A stretch of 64,000 nucleotides of DNA from an uncultured Gammaproteobacteria bacterium. GTDB lineage: Bacteria; Patescibacteriota; Patescibacteriia; UBA9934. Both the position numbers and the translations under genes were made by a program. Shown here piece after piece: positions 8,085 through 28,040 of this stretch (positions are counted from its first letter, which is position 1; the number at the start of each line of letters is the position of its first letter). Location of the stretch: contig CAYJQH010000002.1 in the NCBI GenBank assembly GCA_964372415.1, positions 21,803 through 85,802 of the forward strand, read 5' to 3'. The notes under the pieces were generated by a model that worked only from the letters and a program-made list of their open reading frames with translations, was not told the origin of the DNA and ran no database searches.

Positions 8085-8087
8085 ACT

Positions 8088-8942: not shown

Positions 8943-8960
8943 AAGGAAGAACAACGCTGC

Positions 8961-9033: not shown

Positions 9034-9049
9034 GCAAGTAAGGCGAACC

Positions 9050-9481: not shown

Positions 9482-9498
9482 AGCAGTGTGAATTCCAT

Positions 9499-9543: not shown

Positions 9544-9809
9544 AAGGGGAAGTTTCCCGAAATTCGGACACCATTATTTGCTGCATGACTACGTTGCGGA
9601 ACTCAGATTTTTTCCTTCCGTACGGTTTAAGTACGCCTCAAAAAATCTTCCCCGCGCCTTGCCCTGCAGCAAATACTGGCGTCCTCTGTTGAACAACAGA
9701 ATAATCAGCACACCCCACTTTGTGCCGCTGAGCACCACTTTACACCATTATTTTACCAACCCAAACCAAAAACCACCTTTTCTGTGGATAAAATTTACTT
9801 TAACCTAAT

Positions 9810-11150
9810 TCAGCTCTTTTTCTTAAGCGGCGAAATTCCAAGTGATCTTCGACTTCTGAGTACTCGATGATAGCTACCAGCAAAGCGATGCGCTTCATCA
9901 CGCGCTTTTTGAAATGTGTCTTTGAAGGCTTGTGCCACGCGACGCAGCTCGGCATTTGTCGTATCGTAAACCAAGCGATCTTGCTTTCGATCAAAACCTT
10001 TGGCAATGCCAATGACCGGAATTTTAAGGTCCATTTCTTTTAGTACCTCGTTGACCCGATTGACCTGCCCTTCTCCACCATCAATGATCATGATGTCCGG
10101 AAGCGGCCAAGCGTGCGGCGAAACCTTGTTGCGTGTTAGGCGTCGACGGAGCATCTCCTCCATTGCTCCGACATCATTGGCACCTTCAAAACCTTTTATT
10201 TTAAATTTTCGATATTCGCTCTTGTTTGGTTTGCCAGCCTCAAATACCACCATCGAACCAACGTTCGAGGTACCGGAAATATTTGCAATATCGTAAGCCT
10301 CGATACGACCGAGCGCGTTGATGTGTTTATTAATATCGTCGGCTTTATCAATAAACTCTTCCCGCATCAAGAGTCCGATATCTTGAACGTGTTCAAGAGC
10401 AAAAACCCGATCACGCAAGGAGGCTGCTTTTTCGAACTCATTCGCTCTCGCGGCGGCATTCATCTCACGTTTTAATTGCTTAAGAAGCGTATCTTTTCGT
10501 CCACTAAAGAAAAGCATGAGCTTTCGAATATTCCGTCGATACTCTTTTGGGAGAATAGTTCCAGCACAAACCCCCGGGCATTTGCCAATTTGAGCATCAA
10601 AACACGGCTTACTTGAACCGCTGACTTCCGGTGGGTTGCAGGTCGACCACGGAATAAATCGACGCACGAGGTCGAGTGCTATCTTGAGCGACCGAGCGCT
10701 CAAATACGGTCCATAAACAGCCAAAAATTGTCGTCGAGCTTTGAGTTGTAAAAATTTCGAAAATGGTTGAATACCCAAGCGCTCGAGATCAAGGCCACGC
10801 ATGAGTACGGGTTTAGGAAAGTCTTCGTTCGTAAGACAGAGGTAAATAAAACTCTTGTCATCACGCCCGGCAATGTTGTATGGCGGTTTGTGGGTACGAA
10901 TATTATTTGCTTCGAGAACTAGCGCTTCAAGCACAGATCCGGTTTGCAGGTAATCGATACGCGCAATGTTAGCCACCAGATCAGCTGTCCGCTGATTTTC
11001 TTTTTTTCCCACGAAGTATGAACCAACGCGCTTCTTGAGCGATGTCGCCTTACCTATATACAGCAACTTATTTTTGAGGTCGTAATAAAAATACACCCCA
11101 GGAGCATCGGGTAATTGATTATTGAGAATTTGGATCTCCTGCGGGATCAT
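9810..11150 (-). CDS. uvrC: Excinuclease ABC subunit C (UvrC), short form lacking the C-terminal (HhH)2 domain
   Basis: GIY-YIG N-terminus (GVYFYYD…LLYIGKA), Cys-rich region, UvrB-interacting region (…EFEKAASLRDRV…) and RNase-H-like endonuclease domain. At 446 aa it ends before the usual helix-hairpin-helix tail. Confidence 0.8.
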   Translation of the reverse strand: MIPQEIQILNNQLPDAPGVYFYYDLKNKLLYIGKATSLKKRVGSYFVGKKENQRTADLVANIARIDYLQTGSVLEALVLEANNIRTHKPPYNIAGRDDKSFIYLCLTNEDFPKPVLMRGLDLERLGIQPFSKFLQLKARRQFLAVYGPYLSARSLKIALDLVRRFIPWSTCNPPEVSGSSKPCFDAQIGKCPGVCAGTILPKEYRRNIRKLMLFFSGRKDTLLKQLKREMNAAARANEFEKAASLRDRVFALEHVQDIGLLMREEFIDKADDINKHINALGRIEAYDIANISGTSNVGSMVVFEAGKPNKSEYRKFKIKGFEGANDVGAMEEMLRRRLTRNKVSPHAWPLPDIMIIDGGEGQVNRVNEVLKEMDLKIPVIGIAKGFDRKQDRLVYDTTNAELRRVAQAFKDTFQKARDEAHRFAGSYHRVLRSRRSLGISPLKKKS

Positions 11151-12192: not shown

Positions 12193-14724
12193 TTACTTTT
12201 TGGCACGTCCCACATAGGAACGCAAATATTTACCAGTGTGACTTAATGGTTTACGCGCAATATCTTCTGGGGTACCCGCAGCGACCACAGTGCCACCTTT
12301 GTCGCCTCCTTCGGGGCCCATATCTATAACCCAGTCAGCAGTTTTGATGACGTCCAGGTTGTGCTCAATCACCACCATCGTGTTTCCTTTGTCCACCAAT
12401 CGGTGAAGAACTTCAAGGAGCTGCCTGACATCGTCGAAGTGCAGACCGGTCGTCGGTTCATCGAGAAGGTAAAGCGTTTTACCTGTCTGTCGTCGTGCGA
12501 GTTCGGTGGCGAGCTTCACTCGCTGCGCCTCGCCGCCCGAGAGCGTAGTCGCCGACTGGCCAAGAGTGATGTACGACAAACCAACCTCATTTAAGGCTCT
12601 GAGCTTATTGTGAATGTCAGATATATCTTTAAAAAACTGCTCGGCGATTTCGACCGTCATGCTGAGCACATCCGAGATGTTTTTTTCTTTATAGGTGACC
12701 TCAAGTGTTTCCCGATTAAAACGTTTCCCTTTGCACACTTCACAAACCACATACACCGTGGGCAGAAAGTGCATCTCAATCTCAATCACGCCGTGGCCTT
12801 CGCAGTGATCGCAACGACCACCCGGCACGTTAAAACTAAAACGACCCGATTTATAACCGCGGAAGCGCGCTTCCTCGGTGGCAGCAAATAATTCACGAAT
12901 TGGCCCCCAAGCACCAGTGTAGGTAGCGGGATTGGAGCGTGGCGTGCGACCGATGGCTGATTGATCAATAAGAATAGCTTTATCGATGTATTCAATGCCT
13001 AAAACTGCTTTATTTTTCCCTGGCTCGTCCCTTCCGCCATAAAGTTTCTTGGCTATCGACTTGTACATCACATCGTAGGCCAGGGTAGATTTGCCAGAAC
13101 CGGAGACACCGGTGACGCAAATAAATTTACGGAGCGGAAAGTCGACATCAACATTTTTGAGATTATTTTCGTGAGCCCCACGAACTTTAATCGCTCCGGC
13201 ATCCTTAGCGCGACGCTCTCGGGGAACAGGAATAGCCTCATCACCTCGTAAATAGGCTGCGGTTCGTGATTTTTTATTCTTAAAAATATCGGGCGTGCTG
13301 CCGGAACATACCACTTCTCCGCCATGAACTCCTGCCCCGGGCCCAATTTCTACCAAGTAATCTGAACGGCGAATCGTGTCTTCATCATGTTCAACCACAA
13401 GTACGGTGTTCCCGAGATCACGAAGATCCTCGAGCGTCTTAATCAGACGTTCGTTGTCGCGTTGATGTAAGCCAATGGTTGGCTCGTCGAGGACGTACAT
13501 GGCGCCTACTAAGCGCGAGCCGATTTGTGAAGCGAGTCGGATACGCTGCGCTTCACCTCCGGAAAGCGTACCGGCCGTTCGATTGAGCGTCAGGTAATGC
13601 AAACCGACATCCAACATAAAACCTAGCCGATTCGAGATTTCTTTAAAGATGCTCGTGGCAATCTCTTGTTGACGATCGGTTAGGCGTAGCTCAAGTAAAA
13701 AATTGATCGCCTCGTCGACTGACATAGCGGTCAGGTCAACAATCGATTTGCCACCTATAAATACATGCAAGGCTTCTTTGCGGAGTCGTGCTCCAAGACA
13801 GACTCCACACAATTCATCGGAGAACAATTCACGGGTGCCAAGGCCTGAACATTCCGAACAAGCGCCGTAAGGGCTATTGAAGGAAAAAAGTCGCGGCTCG
13901 ATTTCCGGAAATGAAAAACCATCAACTGGGCAACTAAATTTAGCCGACAAGTAACGTTCGGCGCCGTCGGGCATAAGCACGAGTGCCAGATCTTGGCCAC
14001 GATCGATGGCCTGCTCAAGGGCATCGGCTAGTCGCTGTCGAGATTCTTTAGTCGGCGAGGTCAACATGGCAGTCGGAATAGTATCGATGACGAGCTGAAT
14101 GTCGTGCGCTTTATAACGCGACAGCTCAATGCGCTCATTCAGACGGAACATCTTGCCATCAATCCGAACTTTGGCAAAACCGGCATTGTAAAGATCGTAC
14201 AACATTTGGTAGTATTCACCCTTTCGTCCGCGAACAATAGGCGCAAGAATCGAGATCTCGGTGGGCTTTTGGGAAACCTCGGACTTTGCTTTCAATTCTT
14301 TAATAACAATATCGACCATCTCATCGACAGTGAGTTTTTCGATCTTTCGGCCGCACTCTGGACAATGAGGTTCGCCAATACGCGCGTAGAGCACGCGTAG
14401 GTAGTCGTAAATTTCGGTAATCGTGGCGATTGTAGAACGAGGATTTCGGGAATGTGCCTTTTGATCGATAGAAATAGCTGGCGACAGACCCTCGATTTCA
14501 TCAACGTCAGGCTTTTGCATATTGCCCAAAAATTGTCGGGCGTAGGCCGACAAAGACTCGACGTATCGGCGCTGACCTTCGGCAAAAATGGTATCAAATG
14601 CCAACGAGGACTTCCCCGATCCAGAAAGCCCGGTGATACACACCAGTTTGTTGCGCGGCAATTCAAGCGAAATGTTCTTTAAGTTATGTTCGCGAGCACC
14701 TTTGATGATGATCTTGTCTTGCAT
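12193..14724 (-). CDS. uvrA: Excinuclease ABC subunit A (UvrA)
   Basis: 843 aa with two ABC ATPase modules ([20 protein letters not shown]) and zinc-finger Cys clusters. The N-terminus [20 protein letters not shown] is diagnostic. Confidence 0.9.
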
Positions 14725-14760
14725 ATATATTTTCAGTATTGTGCGGGTTGGAGGTATTTA

Positions 14761-15201
14761 ATGTCTTCCGAAAAACCAGAAGTGAGGCAAGCCGGTTGCG
14801 GCGGTCTGGGCTCGGCTGAAGGCGGTTTGCCGCGCGTCGATCCGAGACACGGACACGATCCGGGCGATGAGGACCCGACTGTCGATAAACCTATTTTCGA
14901 AGACCCAACGGTGCTCAATGATCTGCCACGCGACGCTTCGACCAACCGCGTCGGCCCACCGATCTATGAGCTGCCAACTGAGGCAGGACGCACCACCTGG
15001 GGCTGGGATCAACAGACTCGCTCTCCAGCCGAGATCACCGCGGCCATGTTTCTCCTCACCACGATGGGGCGTCTCCCCTATCGAGACATTCTTCTCCTTG
15101 CCGATCAGTGTGTAGGCGCGAACCTGAACAGCTTGTCGGACGAGGATCGTCAACTGTTCTTCGAGCGCCTGGCAGCGCTCAAGAGCCGCTACCAGAGTTA
15201 A
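14761..15201 (+). CDS. GC-rich small hypothetical protein (146 aa, Pro/Asp-rich) inserted between uvrA and uvrB
   Basis: ATG at 14761 preceded by GGAGG at -12. Codon usage is strongly GC-biased relative to the flanking genes. It exactly fills the uvrB-uvrA intergenic gap in the opposite orientation, and its 3' end overlaps the uvrB stop by 23 nt. Confidence 0.5.
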
Positions 15202-17359: not shown

Positions 17360-17863
17360 TCACTGTCGAGAAGTATCCACACCTCCGCCAAGACTTTTTT
17401 TCTCAATCACGTCAAGGGTTCCAGCCGGCACCTTACTTCGCCATGCTTTATTGCCACTTGCAATCAACTGACGAATTTCCGCGCCAACAATGCCTGGCAC
17501 TGGCACCACTTTTTTCGTGGCGATATTTTTCTTTTCGAAAATTGATCGTACCGCTTCGTTGCCACTCCAAATCACCGGCTCGGTTGGGTTATTAGCAGCA
17601 TCGAGCACATGGACTGCCCAATCTTCATCAGCTGGCGCGTCCTTAACAACGGCAATAGTTGCGTCCGGCAGATTGGCCGCCAACAGGGCGCCAGAAATCA
17701 TTTCGCGACGTTGTTCTAGTGTGAAAGGGTCTTCGTTACCGTTCTTGACCCCATCGCAAATAACCACGACAACGCTATCAGACAATTTTGCCATGCCTTG
17801 GACAACCATCAGGTGTCCGTTATGAAATGGCTGAAATCGACCAGGGAAAATAAGCGTGGACAT
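17360..17863 (-). CDS. Archaeal-type nicotinamide-nucleotide adenylyltransferase (NadM-like cytidylyltransferase fold)
   Basis: GRFQPFHNGH (HxGH) motif at the N-terminus; 167 aa. Confidence 0.7.
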   Translation of the reverse strand: MSTLIFPGRFQPFHNGHLMVVQGMAKLSDSVVVVICDGVKNGNEDPFTLEQRREMISGALLAANLPDATIAVVKDAPADEDWAVHVLDAANNPTEPVIWSGNEAVRSIFEKKNIATKKVVPVPGIVGAEIRQLIASGNKAWRSKVPAGTLDVIEKKSLGGGVDTSRQ

Positions 17864-17866
17864 AAG

Positions 17867-18787
17867 CTAGTCTGTCATTAGTCGCTCTTTGGTCATAACC
17901 GGGAGCGCAAATTTTCGAGTCAGCTGAGTTAAAAGAAGCGGCGGAACATCAATCTTGGACATGTCATTTGTCCCTGTGCCGCGCCCCGACAAGGCCTCAA
18001 GATAACCAATGTCATGAGGATCAAAACCCATGAGCGTGGCCGCTACGGCATCGGCGGCAACTGGATCAGTACTCGCCAACACTACTCCCATTGAGACCGG
18101 CGTGCCATCAACTGGGCCATCACCTTCCATGCCCAGGATACCATCAATAACTACCAAATCGCAGGGTAAATGTTTAAAAAGCTGAGCAATGAGCTCATTG
18201 GCTGCTGCCAGTCCATAAGCGTTGAGCCAGGGAGCCCGAGACCAAACCCGTCCCTGAATACCTACCCGTGAGGGCACAATCATCGTTGCCTCAGACCACG
18301 AACTGATAGCGAGTGACGCCCCATAAACATGATGGGTCTTAAGAGGCGCGACGGCAATTCGTAAATCACAATCACGCACCAATCGTGGCCGACGAACCGC
18401 GACAGTTCGACCTTCAACCAGATATGATTCCTCGTAAATATCTTCGTCGTTCAAGTCGACGAGTGAAAGATTGACGTACTGCGTGATTAAGCCTTCATAG
18501 CCAAAATTTCTAAAACTAGCCTTAGTGCCGTAATGCGCCCCGTCGGCGATCACAATAGGAACATCGGTATATACCCGAATCTGATCCAAGACTCCCCGTA
18601 CCGCGTCAACGTGGGTTGAGGCAAGTTGCAGTTCATGATGCGTTAGGTTGGGCTGAATTAGAATCTGCTTGGCGGATCTAAAACGAGCCACAGCCTCATT
18701 GCCAAGCTCATCGATTGCCTGGCGCACAGCTTTTCGACGATGTTCGTTCTGGATCAAGGCAACCTTCTGCATAGCTGGCCTGAGCAT
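17867..18787 (-). CDS. DUF362 domain protein
   Basis: 306 aa with the GILGMEGDGPVDG motif characteristic of DUF362. Confidence 0.5.
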   Translation of the reverse strand: MLRPAMQKVALIQNEHRRKAVRQAIDELGNEAVARFRSAKQILIQPNLTHHELQLASTHVDAVRGVLDQIRVYTDVPIVIADGAHYGTKASFRNFGYEGLITQYVNLSLVDLNDEDIYEESYLVEGRTVAVRRPRLVRDCDLRIAVAPLKTHHVYGASLAISSWSEATMIVPSRVGIQGRVWSRAPWLNAYGLAAANELIAQLFKHLPCDLVVIDGILGMEGDGPVDGTPVSMGVVLASTDPVAADAVAATLMGFDPHDIGYLEALSGRGTGTNDMSKIDVPPLLLTQLTRKFALPVMTKERLMTD

Positions 18788-20995: not shown

Positions 20996-21024
20996 TTGAA
21001 ATTTTTCTCAACTTCAGCTATCAT
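20996..21024 (+). promoter_or_regulatory. Candidate sigma70-like promoter (TTGAAA-17-TATCAT) upstream of the tRNA-Gln leader element
   Basis: Hexamers read directly from the sequence with a 17-nt spacer. It lies ~45 nt upstream of the conserved element at 21055. Confidence 0.35.
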
Positions 21025-21054
21025 GATTACAATTTTTAACAAGAAAACGTATTA

Positions 21055-21169
21055 AGTTTCGTCAGTTACGAGGAGGAGACGAGTAAGGGCGAGGCGTACT
21101 GATAAGTACGGTGAGTCCGACGGAGTCGACGACGAAGTAAATGGCGAAACTTGGATACGTTTTCTATAC
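21055..21169 (+). ncRNA. Conserved tRNA-abutting element, copy 1 (candidate structured leader or ncRNA)
   Basis: Shares the blocks CGAGGAG…GAGGCGTAC-loop-GTACGGTGA…CCGGAGTCG…ACTTGGATA…TAC with 34156-34307 and 26277-26369, and ends exactly at the tRNA-Gln 5' end. The hairpin stem covaries between copies (GTACT/AGTAC versus GTAGT/ACTAC). Confidence 0.5.
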
Positions 21170-21243
21170 TCCGGGATCGTCTAAGGGCAGGACAGCGGCC
21201 TTTGAAGCCGTGAATCTTGGTTCGAATCCAAGTCCCGGAACCA
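21170..21243 (+). tRNA. tRNA-Gln (anticodon TTG), CCA encoded
   Basis: Manual cloverleaf: acceptor TCCGGGA/TCCCGGA, anticodon loop CTTTGAA, T-arm CTTGG-TTCGAAT-CCAAG. Confidence 0.85.
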
Positions 21244-21246
21244 AAA

Positions 21247-21280
21247 AACCTCGACACAATTTCGAGGTTTTTTGTTTTTG
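21247..21280 (+). terminator. Rho-independent terminator after tRNA-Gln
   Basis: Hairpin AACCTCGACACAATTTCGAGGTT followed by TTTTTGTTTTT. Confidence 0.7.
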
Positions 21281-21417
21281 AGTTTAAGAATTTAGTATTC
21301 GAGACGAGTTTGGGTGAATGGGGAAGATTTTTCCGAAGCGTAGTTCATGCTACGGTGAGGAAAAATCGGGGCCCCATGAGGCCAAAATTGGCCGAATAAT
21401 AAATTCTCCAAAAAGAA

Positions 21418-21455
21418 GCGCCCCGGCCAGTCTGACGACTGGTCGGGGCACGTGA
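21418..21455 (-). terminator. Rho-independent terminator of the 519-aa gene
   Basis: GC hairpin CCCCGGCCAGTC…GACTGGTCGGGG, followed on the minus strand by a TTCTTTTT run. Confidence 0.6.
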
Positions 21456-21465
21456 CGGTGACCGG

Positions 21466-23025
21466 TTAGAGGTCGTCGAGATCGTTCGACATGTCCTCGA
21501 CCGGCACGGCTTCGTCTTCGACGAAGTCAACCGAGGTGGCCATGGTCCGCCGGATGGCGGTCTCCACAGCCTCGGCGATCTCCTCGTTTGAGAGCAGGGA
21601 CGGACGCTGCGGGTGCGACAGCGACCCGTTCAGCAACATGCCCGCCTCGACGAAGAAATACCAGTGCTGCGCCGGCTCCGGCAGATCTCGGCCGGCCGCC
21701 TCGCCATTATGGAAGTTGTCGATGATCCGCCGAACGTCAGACACGAGGTCAGCATGATCGATCCTGACCTCGGACCAACCGGCGCGTCGGGCCTCGGCGA
21801 GAGCGATCTCCTCGGCGATCTCCCAGATCTGCTGCTTGTTGTCATCGGACGTGAAGACGCTCACGTTGCCGCTCGATCGACGGATGACGACCACCTGAGC
21901 CTGATGCACGCTCCGAAGCCACGAGCTCATCTTTCGGAGATTCGTCTCGGCGAAGGCCACTCGCACCCCAGAAATCTGGCGCAAGAGGCCGTTATTTTCC
22001 TGGAAGGATTGTGCGCATTCCTCTTGAAACTCGCGAGCACTCGCCAAGTAGCAGTTGAAGATCTTGAAGACCTTCCGGCCAAGCTCCTCCGGGGACATCT
22101 TGCCCCAAATGTTCAAAGCCGTGACCACGGAGTCGAGCTCGAACGGCAACTGCTTGCGGTCCGGCTCGCGGTACCGCTTGAGCTCCCTTAGAAGGTAGCG
22201 CAAGAGCTTGGCCTCACGATCCTCCACCCTCTTGAAGTTGAGGCCAAAGAACTTGGCCACCTCGTCCGCCGTCGTGGACGGCGGAAAGTGTCCGCCTTCA
22301 ATATCCACGAAGATGGTTCGCGGATTCTCCAGGTACTCTCTCAGGGTTTCCGCGTCCGCGTAGACGAGCTGCGGCTCGTTCAGATACCGCCCGACGATCC
22401 AAGCCTTGGCCAATCCATTCAAGGTGGCGTAGGCCGGAACCACGATAGTCGGTCGACGGAGCTTGCGCATGGCTTCGGCCGTCATCGGCTCGGAAGCCGT
22501 AGACAGAGCGAGGGGCACAGTGAGCGGTCGCGCCATGGGCTGACAGCTCGCGCCATAAAGATGCGCATTGACCACGGCCTCGATCCAGTTGAAGACCCAC
22601 AAGTCGTCGACCTTCTGGTCCTTGCCCCACCATTCGAGCGTCTTGACCACCTCCCCCCATTCGAGGCGAGTTTGTCCGGACACTGCACCCTGGTCATCCT
22701 TGCGCGTGTCAGCGCGGCGAATTTCCGAAAGCAGCGTCTTGTACTCGGATCTGTCGAACAGTCCAAGTTCCTTGGCGGTCAGAGTGGCGGCGCACTCGCC
22801 GGGCAATCGGCCATCCAGCCGGTGCTCGTCAAACATTCCGCCACCAATGCCGATCAGGGCCACCGTGGAGTCACCAAGAAAGGTGCGCTTGGCGCGCTCC
22901 TCATCCCAGAACTCCACCGTGGCTTCAGGATTGGCCCGGCGGATGAGCGCCGCGGCCACGTGCTCGTCGGCATGTGCCCCTCGGTGGGAAACGGCCAGCC
23001 TGAGCTTGAGCGGATCGAGAGCCAT
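21466..23025 (-). CDS. GC-rich hypothetical protein with an N-terminal MYG1/UPF0160-like metal-dependent hydrolase motif and an acidic C-terminal tail
   Basis: 519 aa. N-terminal VSHRGAHADEH…IGIGGGMFDEHR resembles the HxGxFHADE…GG.YD..HH pattern of the MYG1 family. AGGAG lies 8 nt upstream of the ATG. GC content is much higher than in the neighbouring genes. Confidence 0.45.
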   Translation of the reverse strand: MALDPLKLRLAVSHRGAHADEHVAAALIRRANPEATVEFWDEERAKRTFLGDSTVALIGIGGGMFDEHRLDGRLPGECAATLTAKELGLFDRSEYKTLLSEIRRADTRKDDQGAVSGQTRLEWGEVVKTLEWWGKDQKVDDLWVFNWIEAVVNAHLYGASCQPMARPLTVPLALSTASEPMTAEAMRKLRRPTIVVPAYATLNGLAKAWIVGRYLNEPQLVYADAETLREYLENPRTIFVDIEGGHFPPSTTADEVAKFFGLNFKRVEDREAKLLRYLLRELKRYREPDRKQLPFELDSVVTALNIWGKMSPEELGRKVFKIFNCYLASAREFQEECAQSFQENNGLLRQISGVRVAFAETNLRKMSSWLRSVHQAQVVVIRRSSGNVSVFTSDDNKQQIWEIAEEIALAEARRAGWSEVRIDHADLVSDVRRIIDNFHNGEAAGRDLPEPAQHWYFFVEAGMLLNGSLSHPQRPSLLSNEEIAEAVETAIRRTMATSVDFVEDEAVPVEDMSNDLDDL

Positions 23026-23144
23026 TTTTCACTCCTACTCTTGTATGTGATGCCGGCAGATTTCCGGCGGTGAATGAACAACGTGCCCAAGCTTGACACA
23101 AAACAGACCTTTTGTCAAGGTTTTTGGCCAACATTAGATATTTT

Positions 23145-24056
23145 TTACGTTTTTAGGTATTTTCGCATAGCCATCCAGGTGGTCACCATACTAAGGAGGG
23201 CCAGGAGTGCGAATTGAGAGCCAAAAATAAGTGGTGCTTGGACCCAAAAATAATCTGAAAGATTTATGTCTACGCCGCTAAAAAAGCGACTAATACTTGG
23301 CTCGAGCGTAGTGAGGACAAGGGCTACAAGGCCGGCTACTAGCACTGTGGCAGCAAAGCTGTAAAGCATGGCCTCAAGTAAGAAGGGTCCACGCACGAGC
23401 CAGTTTTTGGCGCCCACGAGCTTCATGACCGCGATTTCATCCCGATGAACGTAAATGGCCACGCGAATCGTATTGAAAACTATCAGCATGGCAATGAGCG
23501 CAAAAAAGGCGGCTAACCCAAAACCTCCCCAACGAACCTTTTCGGCAAAGTTCGACAACTTAGTAATCACTAACGCGTGATCGGCAAAATTTGTTTCTTT
23601 GATATAGGGTGTGAACTCAGGGCTTTGAACAGCCTCTAAAATAAATGGAAAATCCTCCGGGTCGTGAGCGGAAATAAGAAGCGAATCGCCAATTGGATTG
23701 CCACCCACTTCTTCTAGGGCGGCCAAAATTTCTGGGTCGTCAGCGTGGAGTCGTTTAAAATTCTCAAGTGATGCTTCGGCCTCAATGACGGATACGTCCC
23801 TGACTTGTGGGAGTCCTAAGAGATAGCCCCGAACCGCTGCTTGAATATCGTTACTAGTACCTTGATTAAAGAAAATCTCAACCTGCACGCTTTGCTCTAC
23901 CGAACGTATAGTTGTTTCGGCCAGCACATTTAAAATAAGAACGGCATTTATAGTAATGAGCGTAAGCAGCATCACTGTAGTTGTCACAAAAGACAACCAA
24001 AAATTACGCAAGGCACTTTGCAGAGCAAACTTCACCAAGCGCCACATTTCTTGCAT
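23145..24056 (-). CDS. ftsX: Cell division permease FtsX
   Basis: 303 aa with an N-terminal TM helix, periplasmic domain and C-terminal 3-TM FtsX module. Directly follows ftsE. Confidence 0.8.
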   Translation of the reverse strand: MQEMWRLVKFALQSALRNFWLSFVTTTVMLLTLITINAVLILNVLAETTIRSVEQSVQVEIFFNQGTSNDIQAAVRGYLLGLPQVRDVSVIEAEASLENFKRLHADDPEILAALEEVGGNPIGDSLLISAHDPEDFPFILEAVQSPEFTPYIKETNFADHALVITKLSNFAEKVRWGGFGLAAFFALIAMLIVFNTIRVAIYVHRDEIAVMKLVGAKNWLVRGPFLLEAMLYSFAATVLVAGLVALVLTTLEPSISRFFSGVDINLSDYFWVQAPLIFGSQFALLALLSMVTTWMAMRKYLKT

Positions 24057-24061
24057 AGGTA

Positions 24062-24904
24062 TTAACCAAGATGATAACGACCGTGTTCAGCATCAGCCAC
24101 AATCTTGCCGTCATTTAAAGTAATAACTCGCTTACGAAGCCCATTCACGATATCTCTGTCGTGAGTCACAAGAACGATAGTTGTTCCTACCTCGTGGATG
24201 CGTTTAAAGAGCTCAAGAATATCACGAGCCGTCAAGGTATCGAGGTTTCCTGTCGGCTCATCAGCTATGATGATCTTTGGCCTGTGCACCAAGGCACGGG
24301 CCACTGAGACGCGTTGTTGTTCACCACCAGAAAGCTGTCTTGGGTAACGATGCAATTTATCAGCTAAACCAACGATCTTCATGACTTGCGGCACCACCTG
24401 CCTGATACGGCTCGTTGCTGCTCCGGCAACTTCCAAAGCAAAAGCTACGTTTTCGTAAGCGGTTTTTTTGGGTAATAGTTTATAGTCCTGAAAAACCACA
24501 CCAATCTGACGACGTAAAATTGGTACTTCGTGATACCTGAGACGTGAAATATCCCAATCCCCAACCGAAATCTGCCCATGGGTTGGCTGTTCTTCCGCAA
24601 AAAGAAGTTTAGCTAAAGTTGTTTTTCCGGATCCGCTCGTACCAACAATCGACACGAACTCGCCAGGTTTAATATGAAAACTTACGCCATCCAAAGCGCG
24701 CGTGTCTGGTTGGTAGATTTTACTCACGTTTTTAAACGTAATCACTCGGGCAGTATAGCATGTACGACCGTTGACTAAAAATGAATTTTCAACTAGACTG
24801 GGGCGTCGTTTCTTGGAGGTAATGTTGGATAACGACTCAGAGATCATTCTCGTGAAAAGCAAGTTCGGAGACCGTGAGATCTCCCGGGAAAACGTGGATT
24901 CCAT
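24062..24904 (-). CDS. ftsE: Cell division ATP-binding protein FtsE
   Basis: GTSGSGKTTL…LSGGEQQRVSVAR…[11 protein letters not shown]. The first ~50 aa of the ORF are probably not translated. A GTG at 24745 (VITFKNVSKIY) is the likelier start. Confidence 0.8.
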   Translation of the reverse strand: MESTFSREISRSPNLLFTRMISESLSNITSKKRRPSLVENSFLVNGRTCYTARVITFKNVSKIYQPDTRALDGVSFHIKPGEFVSIVGTSGSGKTTLAKLLFAEEQPTHGQISVGDWDISRLRYHEVPILRRQIGVVFQDYKLLPKKTAYENVAFALEVAGAATSRIRQVVPQVMKIVGLADKLHRYPRQLSGGEQQRVSVARALVHRPKIIIADEPTGNLDTLTARDILELFKRIHEVGTTIVLVTHDRDIVNGLRKRVITLNDGKIVADAEHGRYHLG

Positions 24905-25976
24905 TCTGGATACGCGGATTTTCCGGATTGTCGGTAAGCGGGAGTGGGTGGTAAAGAGCGGTTTCTACGACCGGCCCTTCATCTGCTACAACCGCAGTCA
25001 AGATAGGCACCATGCCTACCAAAACCCGCACACCGCATTTCGAGCCACGGTTTACGCCGATGGCTTCGAGGGGTACGGCGCCGACGACATTCCGGAAGGC
25101 GACCTGCAAAAGCTCAAGGCCTGGCTCGAGCGTCACCGCTACCTGCAGCTCCTTGTGTCCGACGACATGATGCGCGGGCCGGAGCGGGCCATGTTCAACA
25201 GGCTGTGCATCGAGCTCGCGACCAAGATGGGTCGGCCGGTGAACGAGGTCAAACGCGAAATCCTGACTCAGACCATCATTGCCGCCACCCTTGAGGGTGA
25301 AGCGGCAGTCGAGAGCTTGGGCGAGACGATCGGGCTTGATCGGCGACGGATTGCAGAAATCACCGCCATCGGTCGAAACGTCAACTGGCACGGGGCCCTC
25401 ATCGTGCGTGAGATCAGAGAACAAGAAGATCTCATGACGGCCTGCGGCGCCGAGCTGAGCGCCCTTCTCGAAGCCCGTTCAACGCTCTTCGACGACGCGG
25501 CCAGACGCGAAAGTCACCTGAGGAACGTCAAAAACATCGCAACGCTCCTCGGCACGATCAAGGACCGCCCATGGCGAAGCCTGGCACAACGCGACATTCA
25601 GGACCTCGAACAGTACGTCGGCTATGGCTCAACGGGTGTCGAAGCCCTGATCCAGGCCGAACTCTTCCTCCGTCGACCGGTAGCCGCGCACAAGTGCTTC
25701 TACCTGTCGCGCCAGATCAACGTAGTGCTCTATCGGCTGGCCATGGCCGAAGCGAGACAAGGCAACATCCGCTCCGCTCTCCTTGATCGGGGCTACGCCG
25801 AACTCGTCGCCATTCGGGACTCCATCGATCCCGCGACGGGCGAAATCCTGCAGCGCAACCCGCTCTGGAGCGCCCTCGGTCGCATCAACGATGCGCTCCA
25901 TATCTGGCGTGCGAGCAGCAGCCACTTCGAGGACGTTCGCAACCTCCTCCGCCACGCCGCTGCCACGTTCGGCTAG
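24771..25976 (+). CDS. GC-rich hypothetical protein (401 aa), no recognisable domain
   Basis: Long ORF whose codon usage shifts to high GC after about 24880. Followed by a strong terminator. Its start overlaps the dubious N-terminal extension of ftsE on the other strand. Confidence 0.5.
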   Translation: MTKNEFSTRLGRRFLEVMLDNDSEIILVKSKFGDREISRENVDSILDTRIFRIVGKREWVVKSGFYDRPFICYNRSQDRHHAYQNPHTAFRATVYADGFEGYGADDIPEGDLQKLKAWLERHRYLQLLVSDDMMRGPERAMFNRLCIELATKMGRPVNEVKREILTQTIIAATLEGEAAVESLGETIGLDRRRIAEITAIGRNVNWHGALIVREIREQEDLMTACGAELSALLEARSTLFDDAARRESHLRNVKNIATLLGTIKDRPWRSLAQRDIQDLEQYVGYGSTGVEALIQAELFLRRPVAAHKCFYLSRQINVVLYRLAMAEARQGNIRSALLDRGYAELVAIRDSIDPATGEILQRNPLWSALGRINDALHIWRASSSHFEDVRNLLRHAAATFG

Positions 25977-25984
25977 GCATCTCC

Positions 25985-26017
25985 CGGCTCGGACCCCTTG
26001 GTCCGAGCTGCTTTTTA
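25985..26017 (+). terminator. Rho-independent terminator of the 401-aa gene
   Basis: GCTCGGACC-CCTT-GGTCCGAGC followed by TGCTTTTT. Confidence 0.7.
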
Positions 26018-26034
26018 TGTTCGACCTCCCCTCA

Positions 26035-26100
26035 CCCCTCCTTCTTAAGGAGGGGACTGCTCACTGTTTCACCCTTTATAAGGGGGAATGAAGGGGGTCG
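26035..26100. repeat. GC-rich palindromic hairpin element (CCCCTCCTTCTTAAGGAGGGG … CCCTTTATAAGGG … GGGGGAATGAAGGGGG)
   Basis: A near-identical CCCCCTCCATTTATGGAGGGGG…GGGGGTTGGGGGAGG element is found at 62405-62440. Both lie just beyond the terminator of a GC-rich gene. Confidence 0.6.
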
Positions 26101-26107
26101 AACACAA

Positions 26108-26135
26108 AAAGCACATGCCTTCTGGCACGTGCTTT
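26108..26135. terminator. Bidirectional terminator hairpin (GCACATGCC-TTCT-GGCACGTGC, A-run on one side, T-run on the other)
   Basis: Serves the plus-strand 401-aa gene region and the minus-strand tRNA-Thr. Confidence 0.6.
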
Positions 26136-26211
26136 TGGAGCCACTTCCGGGATTTGAACCCGGGACCTCTGCTTTACGAAAGCATTGCTCTACCGCTGAG
26201 CTAAAGTGGCC
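26136..26211 (-). tRNA. tRNA-Thr (anticodon CGT), CCA encoded
   Basis: Reverse complement is GGCCACTTTAGCTCAGCGGTAGAGC…TTCGTAA…GGTCCCGGGTTCAAATCCCGGAAGTGGCTCCA. Confidence 0.85.
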
Positions 26212-26230
26212 TAGAAAACGTATAACCAAA

Positions 26231-26259
26231 TTATCGACCATGAGAAAACTGATTTAAAC
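26231..26259 (-). promoter_or_regulatory. Candidate promoter of tRNA-Thr (TTTAAA-17-GATAAT on the minus strand)
   Basis: Read directly from the sequence. The promoter-proximal sequence TTGGTTATACGTTTTCTA resembles the 3' end of the tRNA-abutting element copies. Confidence 0.35.
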
Positions 26260-26276
26260 GGCCAAATACTAAAAAC

Positions 26277-26369
26277 AGCGAGGAGCGAAGTGAGGCGTAG
26301 TTAATACTACGGTGAACGAGCACCGGAGTCGCGACAACGCAGTTGGTTATTTGAATCAGTTTTTTGTAC
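26277..26369 (+). ncRNA. Conserved tRNA-abutting element, copy 3 (plus strand, ending at the 3' CCA end of the minus-strand tRNA-Gly)
   Basis: AGCGAGGAGCGAAGTGAGGCGTAGTTAATACTACGGTGAACGAGCACCGGAGTCGCGACAACG…TTGGTTA…TTTTTTGTAC. The hairpin carries compensatory changes relative to copies 1 and 2. Confidence 0.45.
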
Positions 26370-26444
26370 TGGAGCAGGAGACGGGACTCGAACCCGCGAC
26401 CCTTTGCTTGGGAAGCAAATGTTCTACCACTGAACTACTCCTGC
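26370..26444 (-). tRNA. tRNA-Gly (anticodon CCC), CCA encoded
   Basis: Reverse complement is GCAGGAGTAGTTCAGTGGTAGAAC…TTCCCAA…GGGTCGCGGGTTCGAGTCCCGTCTCCTGCTCCA. Confidence 0.85.
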
Positions 26445-26593
26445 GTTTTAAGCGCAAAATATATAGCACGATTTTACTATCCAGTCTAGACTAAGTCTCG
26501 GGTTTCTGCTAACCTTTAGCCGCATCGTGATCCCCATGATGCATCAAGCCAACCCTTTCCACTACAGCGCTCCCCGCGCTGAGCGGAGAGTCC

Positions 26594-27124
26594 ATGATCC
26601 TCGAAACCAGGGCGGTAATCCCCCGCCTTTCGCTCCAGTCGCGACTCCCCCGTGCAGCCAGCATCATCCGCCCCAAGCTGACCGATGATGGCAATCTGAT
26701 CTTGATCCTCAACCCCGAGGGTCTGATCCGCATCCATCTCCGCCGTGAGAACGTCGACAATCAGGCTCTCTACGAATGCCTGGTGGTCGACGAAGAAGGC
26801 CGGCCCCTCGAGCTCTTCTTCGGACGCGGCATCTGCGACGCACTCCTCAACGCCTGTGCCCACCTCGTGGAACACGGCGCCGTCATCCTCCCCGTGAGCG
26901 ACGAAGTGCGCGGCAAGTACATCTCGAACGAACGGCATCACAAGTCGGTCCGCCTGAACTTCGACGACACGAAGGACCTGTCCGTCATCGAGGTGATCCG
27001 GCTCCGACTCAACACCTACGAGGTCAAGATCTTCGACGAGCCGCTCCCGGGATTCTTCTCGAACCCCGTGCTCGGCGTCATCGGGGGCCTGTATTACCTC
27101 AAGGCGAAGGGCTACCTCATGTAG
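26594..27124 (+). CDS. GC-rich hypothetical protein (176 aa)
   Basis: ATG preceded by GGAGAG. GC-rich codon usage. Followed by a nested GC hairpin and T-run terminator. The antisense ORF (26516..27169) has an Asp/Glu/Gly/Val-rich composition typical of an artefact. Confidence 0.5.
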   Translation: MILETRAVIPRLSLQSRLPRAASIIRPKLTDDGNLILILNPEGLIRIHLRRENVDNQALYECLVVDEEGRPLELFFGRGICDALLNACAHLVEHGAVILPVSDEVRGKYISNERHHKSVRLNFDDTKDLSVIEVIRLRLNTYEVKIFDEPLPGFFSNPVLGVIGGLYYLKAKGYLM

Positions 27125-27140
27125 CGCCGACTCGTTCCCC

Positions 27141-27190
27141 TCCCGCACTCCCTGGCTCCCCCGAGCCATGGCGTGCGGGAATCTTTTTTT
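27141..27190 (+). terminator. Rho-independent terminator (CCCGCAC…GGCTCCCCCGAGCC…GTGCGGG followed by TCTTTTTTT)
   Basis: Read directly from the sequence. Confidence 0.65.
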
Positions 27191-28040
27191 ACCACACTAA
27201 AACTAGCGGTGGATTAGCTTGTCTTCTTGTGGCAATGATCTCTCCCAAGGTTAATTTTTTAACCGCGATTCCTCTAAACCTTACATACTCTTCACCGTTT
27301 ATTTTTTCTCGGCTAAGTAACTCAACAACCCAGTAAGCTTCTGGTCCACTCAAAATTTCTGAGTGTTCGCTAATCTGAAGAGTGAGCGCCGGCCTTAACC
27401 AGTGCGGCACCTCGCTCACCTTCATGAGCCCTAGATCACCTTTATTTTTAGCTGAAATGTCCTCAGAAAAATACTCCGCCACATCCCTAAACGGCATGCC
27501 GTCATCAATTTTTTTCATGATCTCCTCAAGAGTATTTTTAGCTGCCTCCTGACCAGCATCACCCAAGGCTACCGCCTGTTCCACGCCTTGCGACAAGAGA
27601 AGCGGCGCCACCACAAACTGACGGTAATCGTCTACAGTCCAACCAGCCTGACTAAGTCCTGAAGCAATTAGCTCCTCATTAACTTCATAATGAGCTATAG
27701 CTTCACGGTTAGTAATCACTCCAAGTTCATTGGCTAATTGCTCAATATACAAACGGTGAACACCACTTTTTAAACCTTCGTCGAAAGCTTCTTCGCCTTG
27801 TGCCTGGCCAAATGCTTCTGCCGCTCGAGCAAGTTCTAGGATGGTGCTATAAGATAAAGTTTTTTGGGACGAAGCTTCACCAGCCTTAATAAAAACTGCT
27901 GGCGCAATTACGCCTCTAGCAAAAAGGCGCGCCGGGCCGTGCGTAAAATGAAAAATAAAAAAAGAATAATTAAAAATTGCATAAACAAAAATTACGCTCA
28001 ACAGAAAAAAACCTGCAGGGCGTAATCTCGCGAACTTCAT
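27189..28040 (-). CDS. Membrane-anchored parvulin-type peptidyl-prolyl cis-trans isomerase (PrsA/SurA-like)
   Basis: N-terminal TM helix and a PpiC-type rotamase domain (…FSEDISAKNKGDLGLM…GPEAYWVVELL). Confidence 0.65.
   Translation of the reverse strand: MKFARLRPAGFFLLSVIFVYAIFNYSFFIFHFTHGPARLFARGVIAPAVFIKAGEASSQKTLSYSTILELARAAEAFGQAQGEEAFDEGLKSGVHRLYIEQLANELGVITNREAIAHYEVNEELIASGLSQAGWTVDDYRQFVVAPLLLSQGVEQAVALGDAGQEAAKNTLEEIMKKIDDGMPFRDVAEYFSEDISAKNKGDLGLMKVSEVPHWLRPALTLQISEHSEILSGPEAYWVVELLSREKINGEEYVRFRGIAVKKLTLGEIIATRRQANPPLVLVW

What the first reader, a model, noticed from the sequence alone, without database searches (positions are those of the whole stretch)
21245..27190. Mosaic GC-rich foreign segments embedded among tRNA genes and ftsEX
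Three genes have sharply higher GC (about 60% or more, with G/C-ending codons) than the ~48% background: the 519-aa MYG1-like gene (21466-23025), the 401-aa hypothetical (about 24880-25976) and the 176-aa hypothetical (26594-27124). Each ends with a strong GC hairpin terminator.

They are interleaved with native-looking low-GC ftsE/ftsX and three tRNA genes (Gln at the left edge, Thr and Gly in the middle). tRNA genes are classic integration targets, and the pattern suggests successive horizontal acquisitions.

None of the three proteins has an assignable function. No integrase, transposase or direct att repeat is visible in the window, so the mechanism and any cargo function (defense, stress, signalling) are unknown.
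Basis: partly seen in the sequence, partly recalled or inferred. Interest (0 to 1): 0.7.

Follow-up and report, generated by a model that had tools for sequence, protein, structure and literature searches.

The report
Old GC-rich orphan genes, not recent imports
Three single genes with strikingly GC-rich codons sit beside tRNA genes in the cell-division region of a Candidatus Uhrbacteria (CPR) genome, but related species carry GC-rich genes in the same three gaps (homologues of A and B; for C only an ORF in the same gap), so they look like long-term residents whose odd composition is kept up, not fresh foreign DNA.

Summary
Three genes have GC 0.60-0.61 and GC3 0.76-0.85, against 0.468 +/- 0.034 GC3 for 44 other genes (z = 8.6-11.3): A (21466-23025, -), B (24822-25976, +) and C (26594-27124, +). 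Each ends in a strong terminator hairpin, and the three tRNAs are where stated.

The interpretation of successive recent acquisitions at tRNA targets is largely not supported.
- The host is a Candidatus Uhrbacteria (CPR).
- Other Uhrbacteria species carry GC-rich genes in the same three gaps. B homologues (31-37% identity) lie next to ftsE in five other contigs. An A homologue follows ftsX in one, and a second lies beside the same DUF362/CTP-transferase/UvrB block. GC-rich ORFs fill the C gap in four.
- ftsE synonymous sites are saturated between almost all species pairs (pS 0.69-0.87), so a donor signature should have decayed.
- In one close pair, B co-diverges with its flanks (dS 0.38 against 0.43-0.52; omega 0.14).
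- No integrase, att repeat, phage or plasmid relative was found.

The parts
21042..21165 (+). Rod-like hairpin element 1, just upstream of tRNA-Gln, with the apical motif GGCGTA-N8-TACGGTGA
   Evidence: RNA MFE -57.7 kcal/mol, z = -9.9. Motif search gave 4 matches against 0.33 expected.
21170..21243 (+). tRNA-Gln(UUG), with its own terminator at 21242-21274. Its 3' end faces gene A.
   Evidence: In outgroup relatives (L007, L010, L012) ftsX is followed by this tRNA within 23-220 nt.
21287..21407 (+). Rod-like hairpin element 2, with the same apical motif, between the tRNA-Gln terminator and the terminator of A
   Evidence: MFE -55.7 kcal/mol, z = -7.8. Direct repeats D7 and D9.
21405..21452 (-). 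Intrinsic terminator of gene A
   Evidence: About 14-bp GC-rich stem followed by CUUCUUUUU; -32.2 kcal/mol, z = -4.1. Sequence read.
21466..23025 (-). Gene A (519 aa): DHH/DHHA1-fold phosphoesterase, long form. GC 0.614, GC3 0.78.
23145..24056 (-). ftsX (native, GC3 0.47)
   Evidence: Pfam FtsX_ECD and FtsX on the identical protein. 51-78% identical in the Uhrbacteria/Patescibacteria relatives L003-L012.
24062..24745 (-). ftsE (native; true start GTG 24745)
   Evidence: All homologues start at VITFKNVSK. 80-85% identical in relatives by tblastn.
24771..24799 (+). Promoter-like site for B, in the 76-nt spacer between the divergent ftsE and B genes
   Evidence: TTGACT-17-TAGACT. GGAGG lies just upstream of ATG 24822.
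24822..25976 (+). Gene B (384 aa): clade-restricted protein, mostly helical, always divergent from ftsE. GC 0.603, GC3 0.76.
   Evidence: Homologues in L003, L005/L006, L011 (P0005) and L015 (P0006) at the same position. Omega = 0.14 between L005 and L006. No family or fold assignment.
25985..26018 (+). Intrinsic terminator of B
   Evidence: 11-bp stem with 8 GC pairs, then CTTTTTAT; -21.1 kcal/mol.
26009..26113 (+). Long hairpin (105 nt) between the B terminator and the terminator of the tRNA operon
   Evidence: Inverted repeat I5, 21-nt arms, 90% complementary. MFE -55 kcal/mol, z = -6.2. Only generic hairpin matches in Rfam.
26136..26210 (-). tRNA-Thr(CGU). A terminator hairpin lies at 26108-26132 on the minus strand.
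26243..26365 (+). Rod-like hairpin element 3, between tRNA-Thr and tRNA-Gly, with the same apical motif. Also present between the same tRNAs in L006 and L009.
   Evidence: MFE -42.3 kcal/mol, z = -4.8..
26370..26444 (-). tRNA-Gly(CCC)
26594..27124 (+). Gene C (176 aa): orphan ORF. GC 0.610, GC3 0.85.
   Evidence: Codon-position GC is 0.64/0.34/0.85, the pattern of the verified genes A and B. The antisense ORF 26516-27169 has 0.81/0.40/0.64, the pattern of the antisense 'shadow' ORFs of A and B. A plus-strand terminator follows. GC-rich ORFs of 173-212 aa fill the same gap in L006, L009, L011 and L015, but homology to C176 is not demonstrable.
27141..27190 (+). Intrinsic terminator of C
   Evidence: Inverted repeat I14, 18-nt arms, 89% complementary. 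-30.5 kcal/mol, then AAUCUUUUUUU.

Best explanation
The three GC-rich segments are three separate single-gene units, each with its own terminator. They occupy the only permissive gaps (boundaries of transcription units next to tRNA genes) in the conserved division and cell-wall block of a Candidatus Uhrbacteria genome. In window order that block runs UvrB, CTP-transferase, DUF362, MacB-type ABC transporter, tRNA-Gln, [A], ftsX, ftsE, [B], tRNA-Thr/Gly, [C], PpiC, DivIC, murE, murD.

Shown:
- A and B are real protein-coding genes. C is inferred to be coding, on the plus strand, from its codon-position GC pattern.
- A is a DHH/DHHA1-fold phosphoesterase.
- B is under purifying selection but evolves about 40 times faster than its flanks at the protein level.
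- A and B homologues, and GC-rich ORFs in the C gap, occupy the same gaps in other Uhrbacteria species. Homology of the window's C176 to those ORFs is not shown.
- All of these are GC3-rich relative to their hosts.
- The housekeeping flanks are saturated at synonymous sites between almost all these species.

Inferred:
- The genes are old residents of these gaps, entering an ancestor of the clade or arising there. They are inherited mostly vertically, with occasional loss (L004) and possibly some allele exchange.
- Their GC3-rich codon usage is actively maintained by a force specific to this class of genes, not left over from a recent donor. I think selection on synonymous sites or the transcript is most likely: expression level, mRNA stability or structure, or decoding by particular isoacceptors. 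GC-biased gene conversion is the second choice.

Likely function of A (inferred from fold and conserved His/Asp motifs): a metal-dependent nanoRNase, pAp phosphatase or dinucleotide phosphodiesterase. B may act with, or regulate, ftsEX, because it always shares a 60-80 nt divergent control region with ftsE. This is a weak inference from position only.
For: 1. Composition and coding frames.

2. Synteny.
- B lies next to ftsE in L003, L005/L006, L011 and L015.
- A follows ftsX in L003. P0003 (41% identical) is followed by DUF362, CTP_transf and UvrB, as on the tRNA-Gln side of the window.
- GC-rich ORFs fill the C gap in L006, L009, L011 and L015.

3. GC3 of the gap genes against the host median:
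- window 0.76-0.85 against 0.47
- L003 0.73-0.87 against 0.49
- L006 0.70-0.82 against 0.47
- L015 0.80-0.91 against 0.53
- L009 0.83 against 0.46
- L011 0.62-0.63 against 0.54
Values agree within a genome and differ between genomes, which fits a genome-level force.

4. ftsE pS is 0.69-0.87 in all 15 species pairs, so dS is saturated in all but one pair.

5. L005 and L006 are 91.5% identical and colinear across B, ftsE and ftsX. B has dS 0.38 and omega 0.14. The flanks have dS 0.43-0.52 and omega 0.003-0.004. So B shows vertical co-divergence, purifying selection and no hypermutation.

6. The B identity matrix recovers the same two clusters as ftsX.

7. No GC-rich relative with this gene order appeared in the peptide-based scan of GTDB species genomes; all hits were GC 0.44-0.53 apart from an unrelated Thermoanaerobaculia contig.

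8. The pattern is general.
- Short-form A relatives have higher GC3 than their neighbours in 21 of 24 metagenome loci (mean +0.09, maximum +0.34) and are single-gene outliers among housekeeping genes.
- Further long forms: L065 0.78 against 0.53, L066 0.87 against 0.57-0.60.
- A fourth gap (recR to rplU) holds GC-rich orphans in L006, L011 and L015.

9. The junctions are real. Two independent Logan assemblies from two runs match the window through A, ftsX, ftsE and B, one exactly and one with a single mismatch.
Against: - No mechanism for keeping GC3 high was demonstrated, and no motif-avoidance or overlapping-gene signal was found.
- Gene histories are partly discordant. B groups L011 with L015 (62%) and leaves L006 at 42-43%, whereas ftsX and ftsE place L006 nearer to L015. 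C is detectably homologous only between L006 and L015. This could mean allele replacement, not pure vertical descent.
- L004, which sits inside the cluster that carries B, C and D, has none of them.
- The L005/L006 divergence is too shallow to exclude amelioration in progress.
- Mutation in bacteria is generally AT-biased (background knowledge), so a maintained GC3 of 0.8 requires a strong force that is so far unidentified.
- A's fold assignment rests on a medium-confidence model (pLDDT 66) built from a three-sequence alignment.
Confidence: 0.55

Rival explanations
1. Hypervariable slots with recurrent allele replacement. Divergent GC-rich alleles of A, B and C circulate in a gene pool shared among Uhrbacteria, or on an unsampled GC-rich episome or virus. 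They are swapped in by homologous recombination through the conserved flanks (ftsE, the tRNAs, PpiC), much as O-antigen and capsule loci keep a deviant composition.
For: - Presence is patchy (L004 is empty) and divergence between alleles is very high at fixed positions.
- The histories of B and C are discordant within cluster 2.
- C-gap ORFs are mostly not detectably homologous.
- The tRNA-Thr/Gly pair between B and C is inverted in some lineages, which shows local rearrangement.
- Island boundaries are sharp and coincide with gene ends.
Against: - No GC-rich donor lineage, phage, plasmid or viral contig carries relatives.
- B and its flanks co-diverge in L005/L006.
- At cluster level the B groupings match those of ftsX.
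- Island GC3 is coherent within each genome, which is not expected from independent draws on a pool.
- The model only moves the question of why the pool is GC-rich.
Confidence: 0.27
2. One reading: recent, successive horizontal acquisitions from GC-rich donors, integrated at tRNA genes in this genome.
For: - The composition and codon usage look strongly foreign.
- The genes are adjacent to tRNA genes.
- Compositionally predicted genomic islands are reported as common in Patescibacteria (PMC12455944).
Against: - A and B homologues lie at the same positions with the same composition in species whose flanks are saturated at synonymous sites.
- There are no att repeats, and no integrase or transposase in the region.
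- B (and, as far as searched, C) has no homologue outside these Uhrbacteria loci, and A's relatives were not found in any phage, plasmid, viral or GC-rich donor genome, among 5.8 billion proteins.
Confidence: 0.08
3. High GC3 is a side effect of dual coding: an overlapping antisense or alternative-frame gene constrains the third codon positions.
For: - Full-length antisense ORFs cover several islands (for example C217 in the window, 404 aa in L006 B, 509 aa in L003 A) and are even the annotated genes in public records.
- The +2 sense frame is somewhat more open than synonymous shuffles predict in several genes.
Against: - Antisense open runs are no longer than in synonymous-codon shuffles, so they follow from the codon usage itself.
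- The antisense products have the GNN-rich composition typical of shadow ORFs.
- L011 B keeps the protein but has no long antisense frame.
Confidence: 0.03
4. An assembly or binning chimera: GC-rich reads from another organism were stitched into a CPR contig.
For: None beyond the compositional contrast.
Against: The same junctions appear in the window, in two independent Logan assemblies (100% and 99.98% identical) and, with diverged sequence, in five other genomes.
Confidence: 0.01

Closest known systems
tRNA-associated genomic islands or islets (integrase-mediated integrative elements)
   Same: Deviant base composition and codon usage, location next to tRNA genes, patchy presence among relatives, and cargo of unknown function.
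   Different: There is no integrase and no att direct repeat. Each unit is a single gene. The units flank both sides of a tRNA pair. The positions are conserved between species whose flanks are saturated at synonymous sites, so these are not recent insertions.
DHH/DHHA1 phosphoesterases (NrnA, PggH, archaeal PAP phosphatase, GdpP catalytic domain, RecJ core) and the related MYG1/UPF0160 family
   Different: No Pfam DHH, DHHA1 or UPF0160 hit at E <= 1. The motif reads DEH, not DHH. The long form carries an extra beta-alpha-beta-alpha-beta module of about 150-200 aa (residues about 185-260) that looks like a degenerate copy of the N-terminal subdomain; the internal alignment is only suggestive (z about 2.8). 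Activity and substrate are untested.
ORFans, meaning fast-evolving lineage-specific genes (Daubin and Ochman 2004; from memory)
   Same: B and C have no homologues outside a narrow clade, no domain hits, and evolve far faster than their neighbours.
   Different: Classical ORFans are short and AT-rich relative to their genome. These are strongly GC3-rich, up to 519 aa, and B at least is under clear purifying selection (omega 0.14).
Long-lived compositionally deviant loci (AT-rich Salmonella pathogenicity islands, low-GC O-antigen and capsule loci; from memory)
   Same: The deviant composition persists at a fixed chromosomal position far longer than simple amelioration predicts.
   Different: The deviation runs the opposite way (GC-rich in a mid-GC genome). 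The units are single genes. No silencing system or known diversifying function is involved.
GC3 elevation by GC-biased gene conversion in recombining bacterial genes (Lassalle et al. 2015; from memory)
   Same: An excess of GC at synonymous sites without a matching shift in amino-acid composition.
   Different: The reported effects are a few percent and regional. Here the GC3 excess is 0.3-0.4, with boundaries that coincide with single genes.

Membership tests
tRNA-targeting integrative genomic island | Tyrosine or serine integrase (or another recombinase) at one end | tested here: not met
   The genes within about 8 kb on either side that were identified are all housekeeping types: UvrA, UvrB, CTP_transf, DUF362, MacB ABC, FtsX/E, PpiC, DivIC, MurE/D and a P-type ATPase. 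A, B and C have no recombinase domain. The whole 64-kb window was not screened ORF by ORF.
tRNA-targeting integrative genomic island | Direct att repeats that duplicate the 3' end of the target tRNA | tested here: not met
   The repeat finder on 21000-27400 found no repeat of any tRNA end at an island border. The only shared repeats are the apical motifs of the hairpin elements.
tRNA-targeting integrative genomic island | Recent insertion: absent from the orthologous site in close relatives, with unrelated sequence in distant ones | tested here: not met
   Homologous, or for C positionally equivalent, GC-rich genes are at the same sites in L003, L005/L006, L009, L011, L015 and the P0003 contig. 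Only L004 and more distant genomes have empty sites.
tRNA-targeting integrative genomic island | Atypical composition relative to the host | tested here: met
   GC3 z = 8.6-11.3. Tetranucleotide r with the host is 0.02-0.24.
DHH/DHHA1 phosphoesterase superfamily (gene A) | Two-domain DHH plus DHHA1 fold | tested here: met
DHH/DHHA1 phosphoesterase superfamily (gene A) | Catalytic motifs (DxD, D, DHH, D) and the DHHA1 GGGH motif | tested here: inconclusive
   Invariant in four homologues: H14, H18, D20, E21, D66-E67-H68, and N466-G-S-L-S-H471. The pattern is similar but not identical (DEH for DHH, GSLSH for GGGH). No residue-level superposition was done.
DHH/DHHA1 phosphoesterase superfamily (gene A) | Match to the Pfam DHH or DHHA1 profile HMMs | tested here: not met
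   No Pfam family at E <= 1 for A519, or at E <= 0.1-1 for 18 relatives. A profile search against PDB sequences also found nothing.
DHH/DHHA1 phosphoesterase superfamily (gene A) | Metal-dependent phosphoesterase activity | not testable with these tools
   Requires biochemistry.
   No hit at E <= 1. The resemblance is at motif level only, recalled from memory.
Anti-phage defence systems (PADLOC) or phage gene families (PHROGs) | Profile match of any of A, B or C | tested here: not met
   No significant hits. The best was E = 0.011, to a Cas10 model, and that hit was on the antisense shadow ORF.
Rho-independent single-gene transcription units | GC-rich hairpin plus U tract immediately after each stop codon | tested here: met
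   for A, B and C.

The most novel reading that the evidence does not exclude
CPR bacteria of this clade, and perhaps CPR more widely given the DHH-like family, may hold a class of single-gene, lineage-specific loci whose GC3-rich codon usage is kept about 0.3-0.4 above the genome. This would persist over evolutionary spans in which neutral synonymous sites turn over many times, at a level set per genome: non-ameliorating 'GC islets'. That would imply a gene-class-specific force, such as a codon- or isoacceptor-based expression programme, protection of transcripts, or targeted biased conversion. It would also mean that compositional island predictors mislabel old native genes as recent transfers in these genomes.
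Probability: 0.35. Interest if true: 0.7.

Novelty: new variant of a known kind. Interest (0 to 1): 0.5.

Why it matters
1. It is a concrete counter-example to the habit of reading deviant GC and codon usage next to tRNA genes as recent horizontal transfer. Here the signal persists at orthologous sites across species whose flanks are saturated at synonymous sites. Composition-based estimates of transfer in Patescibacteria, such as island predictions covering up to 13% of a genome (PMC12455944), may therefore include old residents.

2. It raises a testable question about what can hold synonymous GC 0.3-0.4 above the genome in specific genes of a reduced genome.

3. It identifies a sizeable family of DHH-fold phosphoesterases with no Pfam match (847 clusters at 50% identity). 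These are candidate nanoRNases or pAp phosphatases for organisms in which this step is poorly annotated.

4. It shows that gene callers pick the wrong strand in such GC-rich islets, which hides these proteins from homology searches.

Tried and rejected
- Family scans. Pfam, NCBIfam, PADLOC and PHROGs scans of A, B, C and the antisense ORF gave nothing significant.
- Protein database searches.
- Mobile-element searches. Viral-contig scans with single proteins and with alignments found no relatives. tblastn against phage and plasmid collections found no match. A metagenome scan with the B alignment found none.
- Homology of C176 to the other C-gap ORFs. BLASTP and hhalign were not significant (E 0.08-2). 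Only the L006 and L015 ORFs are related.
- att-like direct repeats: none.
- Known RNA families for the hairpin elements: only generic miRNA-hairpin matches well below the gathering scores.
- Motif avoidance in island transcripts, such as endoribonuclease sites: no striking depleted 3-mer or 4-mer against synonymous shuffles.
- Overlapping antisense genes: open antisense frames are what the codon usage predicts.
- Translational optimisation: ribosomal protein L9 and the other housekeeping genes have ordinary GC3 (0.45-0.52), so island codons are not the genome's preferred codons.
- tRNA-codon link. ACG is enriched in A and B next to tRNA-Thr(CGU). However, C prefers ACC, GGG is not enriched, and L004 has the tRNAs without the islands.
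- SNP analysis of two identical-strain contigs: only one difference, so uninformative.
- Internal duplication in A: alignment score 39 against 26.9 +/- 4.3 in shuffles (maximum 50), so only suggestive.
- The afdb50 fold library was unavailable.

Full report
**1. The observation**

The window averages 48.9% GC. Only five stretches exceed 56% in 500-nt windows, and three of them are the segments in the finding.

| Gene | Coordinates | Length | GC | GC3 | z (GC3) |
|---|---|---|---|---|---|
| A | 21466-23025 (-) | 519 aa | 0.614 | 0.78 | 9.4 |
| B | 24822-25976 (+) | 384 aa | 0.603 | 0.76 | 8.6 |
| C | 26594-27124 (+) | 176 aa | 0.610 | 0.85 | 11.3 |

- The 44 other genes of the window have GC3 0.468 +/- 0.034 (maximum 0.522).
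- The excess lies almost entirely at third codon positions; GC1 and GC2 are close to host values.
- Codon choice is systematically shifted to C- or G-ending codons.
- Tetranucleotide profiles of the three genes resemble each other (r 0.70-0.83) and not the host (r 0.02-0.24).
- Each gene is followed by a strong hairpin plus U tract.

Corrections to the coordinates:
- B most likely starts at ATG 24822, behind a GGAGG. A TTGACT-N17-TAGACT site lies in the 76-nt spacer it shares with ftsE.
- ftsE really starts at GTG 24745.

**2. The organism and its neighbourhood**

A peptide-pattern scan of one genome per GTDB species with FtsX returned 12 loci. The closest are Candidatus Uhrbacteria and other Patescibacteria MAGs, with FtsX 51-78% identical.

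In window order the region reads: UvrA, UvrB, CTP-transferase-like, DUF362, MacB-type ABC transporter, tRNA-Gln, [A], ftsX, ftsE, [B], tRNA-Thr, tRNA-Gly, [C], PpiC-type rotamase, DivIC, MurE, MurD, P-type ATPase. This is a housekeeping block for division, cell wall and repair. It contains no integrase or transposase, and no att-like repeats border the GC-rich genes.

**3. Comparison with relatives (the decisive test)**

I used tblastn of the window proteins on the fetched loci, tRNA scans and GC profiles.

- *B.* Homologues at 31-37% identity lie divergently next to ftsE in L003, L005/L006, L011 (P0005) and L015 (P0006). All are richer in GC3 than their hosts.
- *A.* A homologue at 45% identity follows ftsX in L003, the closest relative. 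The homologue P0003 (41%) lies in a JGI contig where it is followed by DUF362, CTP_transf and UvrB, the same block that lies beyond tRNA-Gln in the window.
- *C.* The gap between PpiC and the tRNA pair holds a GC-rich ORF of 173-212 aa in L006, L009, L011 and L015. Only the L006 and L015 ORFs are demonstrably homologous (E = 4e-11). The window's C176 has no demonstrable homologue.
- *Empty sites.* L004 falls inside the cluster of L006, L011 and L015 by FtsX and FtsE (80-93% identity). It has a compact PpiC, tRNA-Thr, tRNA-Gly, ftsE arrangement and none of the islands. More distant genomes (L007, L010, L012) have tRNA-Gln within 23-220 nt of ftsX.
- *A fourth gap.* GC-rich orphans lie between recR and rplU in L006, L011 and L015. 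L006 and L015 are 48% identical there, where RecR is 90% identical. L004 again lacks the gene.

GC3 of the gap genes against the host median:

| Genome | Gap genes | Host median |
|---|---|---|
| window | 0.76-0.85 | 0.47 |
| L003 | 0.73-0.87 | 0.49 |
| L006 | 0.70-0.82 | 0.47 |
| L015 | 0.80-0.91 | 0.53 |
| L009 | 0.83 | 0.46 |
| L011 | 0.62-0.63 | 0.54 |

The values agree within each genome and differ between genomes.

**4. How old are they?**

- ftsE has 227 codons and no gaps in six genomes. Its pS is 0.69-0.87 in every pair, which is saturation in all but one pair.
- If B and A descend from the common ancestor of these genomes, their synonymous sites have been replaced many times. A donor's signature should therefore be gone.
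- L005 and L006 are a close pair, 91.5% identical and colinear across B, ftsE and ftsX. Here B has dS 0.38, dN 0.052 and omega 0.14. ftsE has dS 0.52 and ftsX 0.43, both with omega about 0.003-0.004.
- So B is a functional gene under purifying selection. It diverges together with its flanks and is not hypermutating, but its protein changes about 40 times faster than theirs.
- The B identity matrix recovers the same two clusters as FtsX (window + L003; L006 + L011 + L015).
- Inside the second cluster the order differs. B is 62% identical between L011 and L015 but 42-43% to L006, and C tells the opposite story. Some allele exchange or strong rate variation therefore remains possible.

**5. Where could they have come from?**

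- Nothing related was found in viral contigs, phage genomes or plasmids.
- Among 5.8 billion proteins, A has two relatives and B has two.
- No GC-rich relative sharing this gene order appeared in the composition-independent scan of GTDB genomes.
- Two independent assemblies from other sequencing runs match the window through the A, ftsX, ftsE and B junctions, one exactly and one with a single mismatch. This excludes a chimera.

**6. What the genes are**

*Gene A.*
- Invariant residues are H14, H18, D20, E21, D66-E67-H68 and NGSLSH 466-471. They sit where DHH and DHHA1 motifs are expected.
- An exhaustive profile search found 847 cluster representatives (36 at E <= 1e-30). Long forms are 470-570 aa like A. 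Short forms of 300-370 aa match only the N- and C-terminal parts. None of the 18 relatives tested has a Pfam assignment for this region.
- In 24 metagenome loci the short forms are single-gene outliers among housekeeping genes (infC-rplT, smpB, tmRNA, argS). Their GC3 is higher than that of their neighbours in 21 of 24 cases, by +0.09 on average and up to +0.34.
- Two more long forms show the same contrast: 0.78 against 0.53, and 0.87 against 0.57-0.60.

*Gene B.* It is predicted to have a small N-terminal beta region followed by helices, but the model is poor and the fold matches are generic helical bundles.

*Gene C.* It is an orphan. Its coding strand is inferred from codon-position GC. C176 shows 0.64/0.34/0.85, like A and B. 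The antisense ORF shows 0.81/0.40/0.64, like the antisense shadows of A and B. A plus-strand terminator follows it. Public gene calls chose the antisense ORF.

**7. Explanation**

The best-supported reading is that these are old, mostly vertically inherited, clade-specific genes. They occupy the few permissive gaps of a conserved block, and their GC3-rich codon usage is actively maintained.

What maintains it was not established. I rank the candidates as follows.
1. Selection on synonymous sites or the transcript, which fits the sharp boundaries at gene ends and the per-genome coherence.
2. GC-biased gene conversion.
3. Recurrent replacement from an unsampled GC-rich allele pool. This is the main rival. 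It is supported by the patchiness, the discordant histories of B and C, and the inversion of the tRNA pair between lineages.

The following were tested and not supported:
- dual coding;
- avoidance of specific motifs;
- translational optimisation;
- a tRNA-codon link.

**8. Comparison with what is known, and novelty**

- As genomic islands, these units fail the defining tests: no integrase, no att repeats, and no recent insertion.
- As ORFans, they are atypical because they are GC-rich rather than AT-rich.
- A is a new and divergent branch of the DHH superfamily, without a Pfam match.
- Persistence of a deviant composition at fixed loci has precedents (from memory): AT-rich pathogenicity islands and low-GC O-antigen loci. 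I found no description of GC-rich single-gene islets in CPR genomes in the literature searches.
- I rate the finding as a new variant of a known kind. Interest is moderate and would be higher if active maintenance is confirmed.

Noticed in passing
window 21042-21165, 21287-21407, 26243-26365; also L006 4923-4943 and L009 9107-9127: Three rod-like hairpins of 115-125 nt have different stems but share an apical motif, G(A/G)GCGTA-N8-TACGGTGA. All lie next to tRNA genes. MFE is -42 to -58 kcal/mol (z -4.8 to -9.9). The copy between tRNA-Thr and tRNA-Gly is conserved in two relatives. There is no Rfam match. They could be an unknown tRNA-linked RNA or a MITE/REP-like element.
   Followed up: partly
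window 26009-26113: A fourth long hairpin (105 nt, -55 kcal/mol, z = -6.2) is wedged between the terminator of B and the terminator of the tRNA operon. It has a different apex from the other three.
   Followed up: partly
window 26136-26444 compared with L003, L004, L006, L008, L009, L011, L015: The tRNA-Thr/tRNA-Gly pair is inverted as a unit in the window, L015 and L009 relative to L003, L004, L006, L008 and L011. In the second group B, tRNA-Gly, tRNA-Thr and C are all co-directional. In L009 the hairpin motif between the tRNAs has the opposite orientation relative to them.
   Followed up: partly
window 26516-27169 (-); L015 11617-12219 (-): Public gene calls (P0155 and P0156, and the Logan call in L015) annotate the antisense shadow ORF of the C-gap gene. 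The high-GC3 frame on the other strand is not called. The real proteins are therefore probably missing from protein databases, which would hide their homologues.
   Followed up: partly
L015 843-1442 (+), L006 14933-15547 (-), L011 11155-11802 (-): A fourth conserved gap, between recR and rplU, holds a GC-rich orphan of 200-215 aa with no Pfam match (GC3 0.67-0.80). It is 48% identical between L006 and L015, where RecR is 90% identical. The gap is empty in L004.
   Followed up: partly
L004 (CALRHE010000001.1) 7900-10000 and 17500-18600: This Uhrbacteria genome is as close to L006 and L015 as they are to each other, yet it lacks every GC-rich islet (B, C and D). This suggests coordinated loss, or a lineage in which this class of genes is dispensable.
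   Followed up: no
window 62521-63981 (-) and 14686-15201 (+): Two more ORFs without Pfam matches are moderately GC-rich (GC3 0.63 and 0.60; z = 4.7 and 4.1). The second lies in the 454-nt gap between uvrA and uvrB. Whether they belong to the same class of genes, and whether the second is a real gene, was not examined.
   Followed up: no
window 24062-24904 (-): The longest ftsE ORF (280 aa) carries a spurious 53-codon N-terminal extension that overlaps the start of B. All homologues begin at VITFKNVSK, which corresponds to GTG 24745.
   Followed up: yes
P0140 (914 aa) and the short forms in L017-L060: The DHH-like family of gene A has 847 cluster representatives and no Pfam model. One member is fused to a TruD pseudouridine synthase domain. 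Many short forms end in a Cys-rich tail (for example C-x-W-Y-x-x-G-x-x-R-C).
   Followed up: no
A, B and C and their homologues: The +2 sense frame is open for longer than synonymous-codon shuffles predict in several island genes: L003 A 295 codons against 133 +/- 39, L015 C 195 against 112, L006 C 149 against 91. This may reflect context-dependent avoidance of T-ending codons before purine-purine. The effect is weak and not corrected for multiple tests.
   Followed up: no
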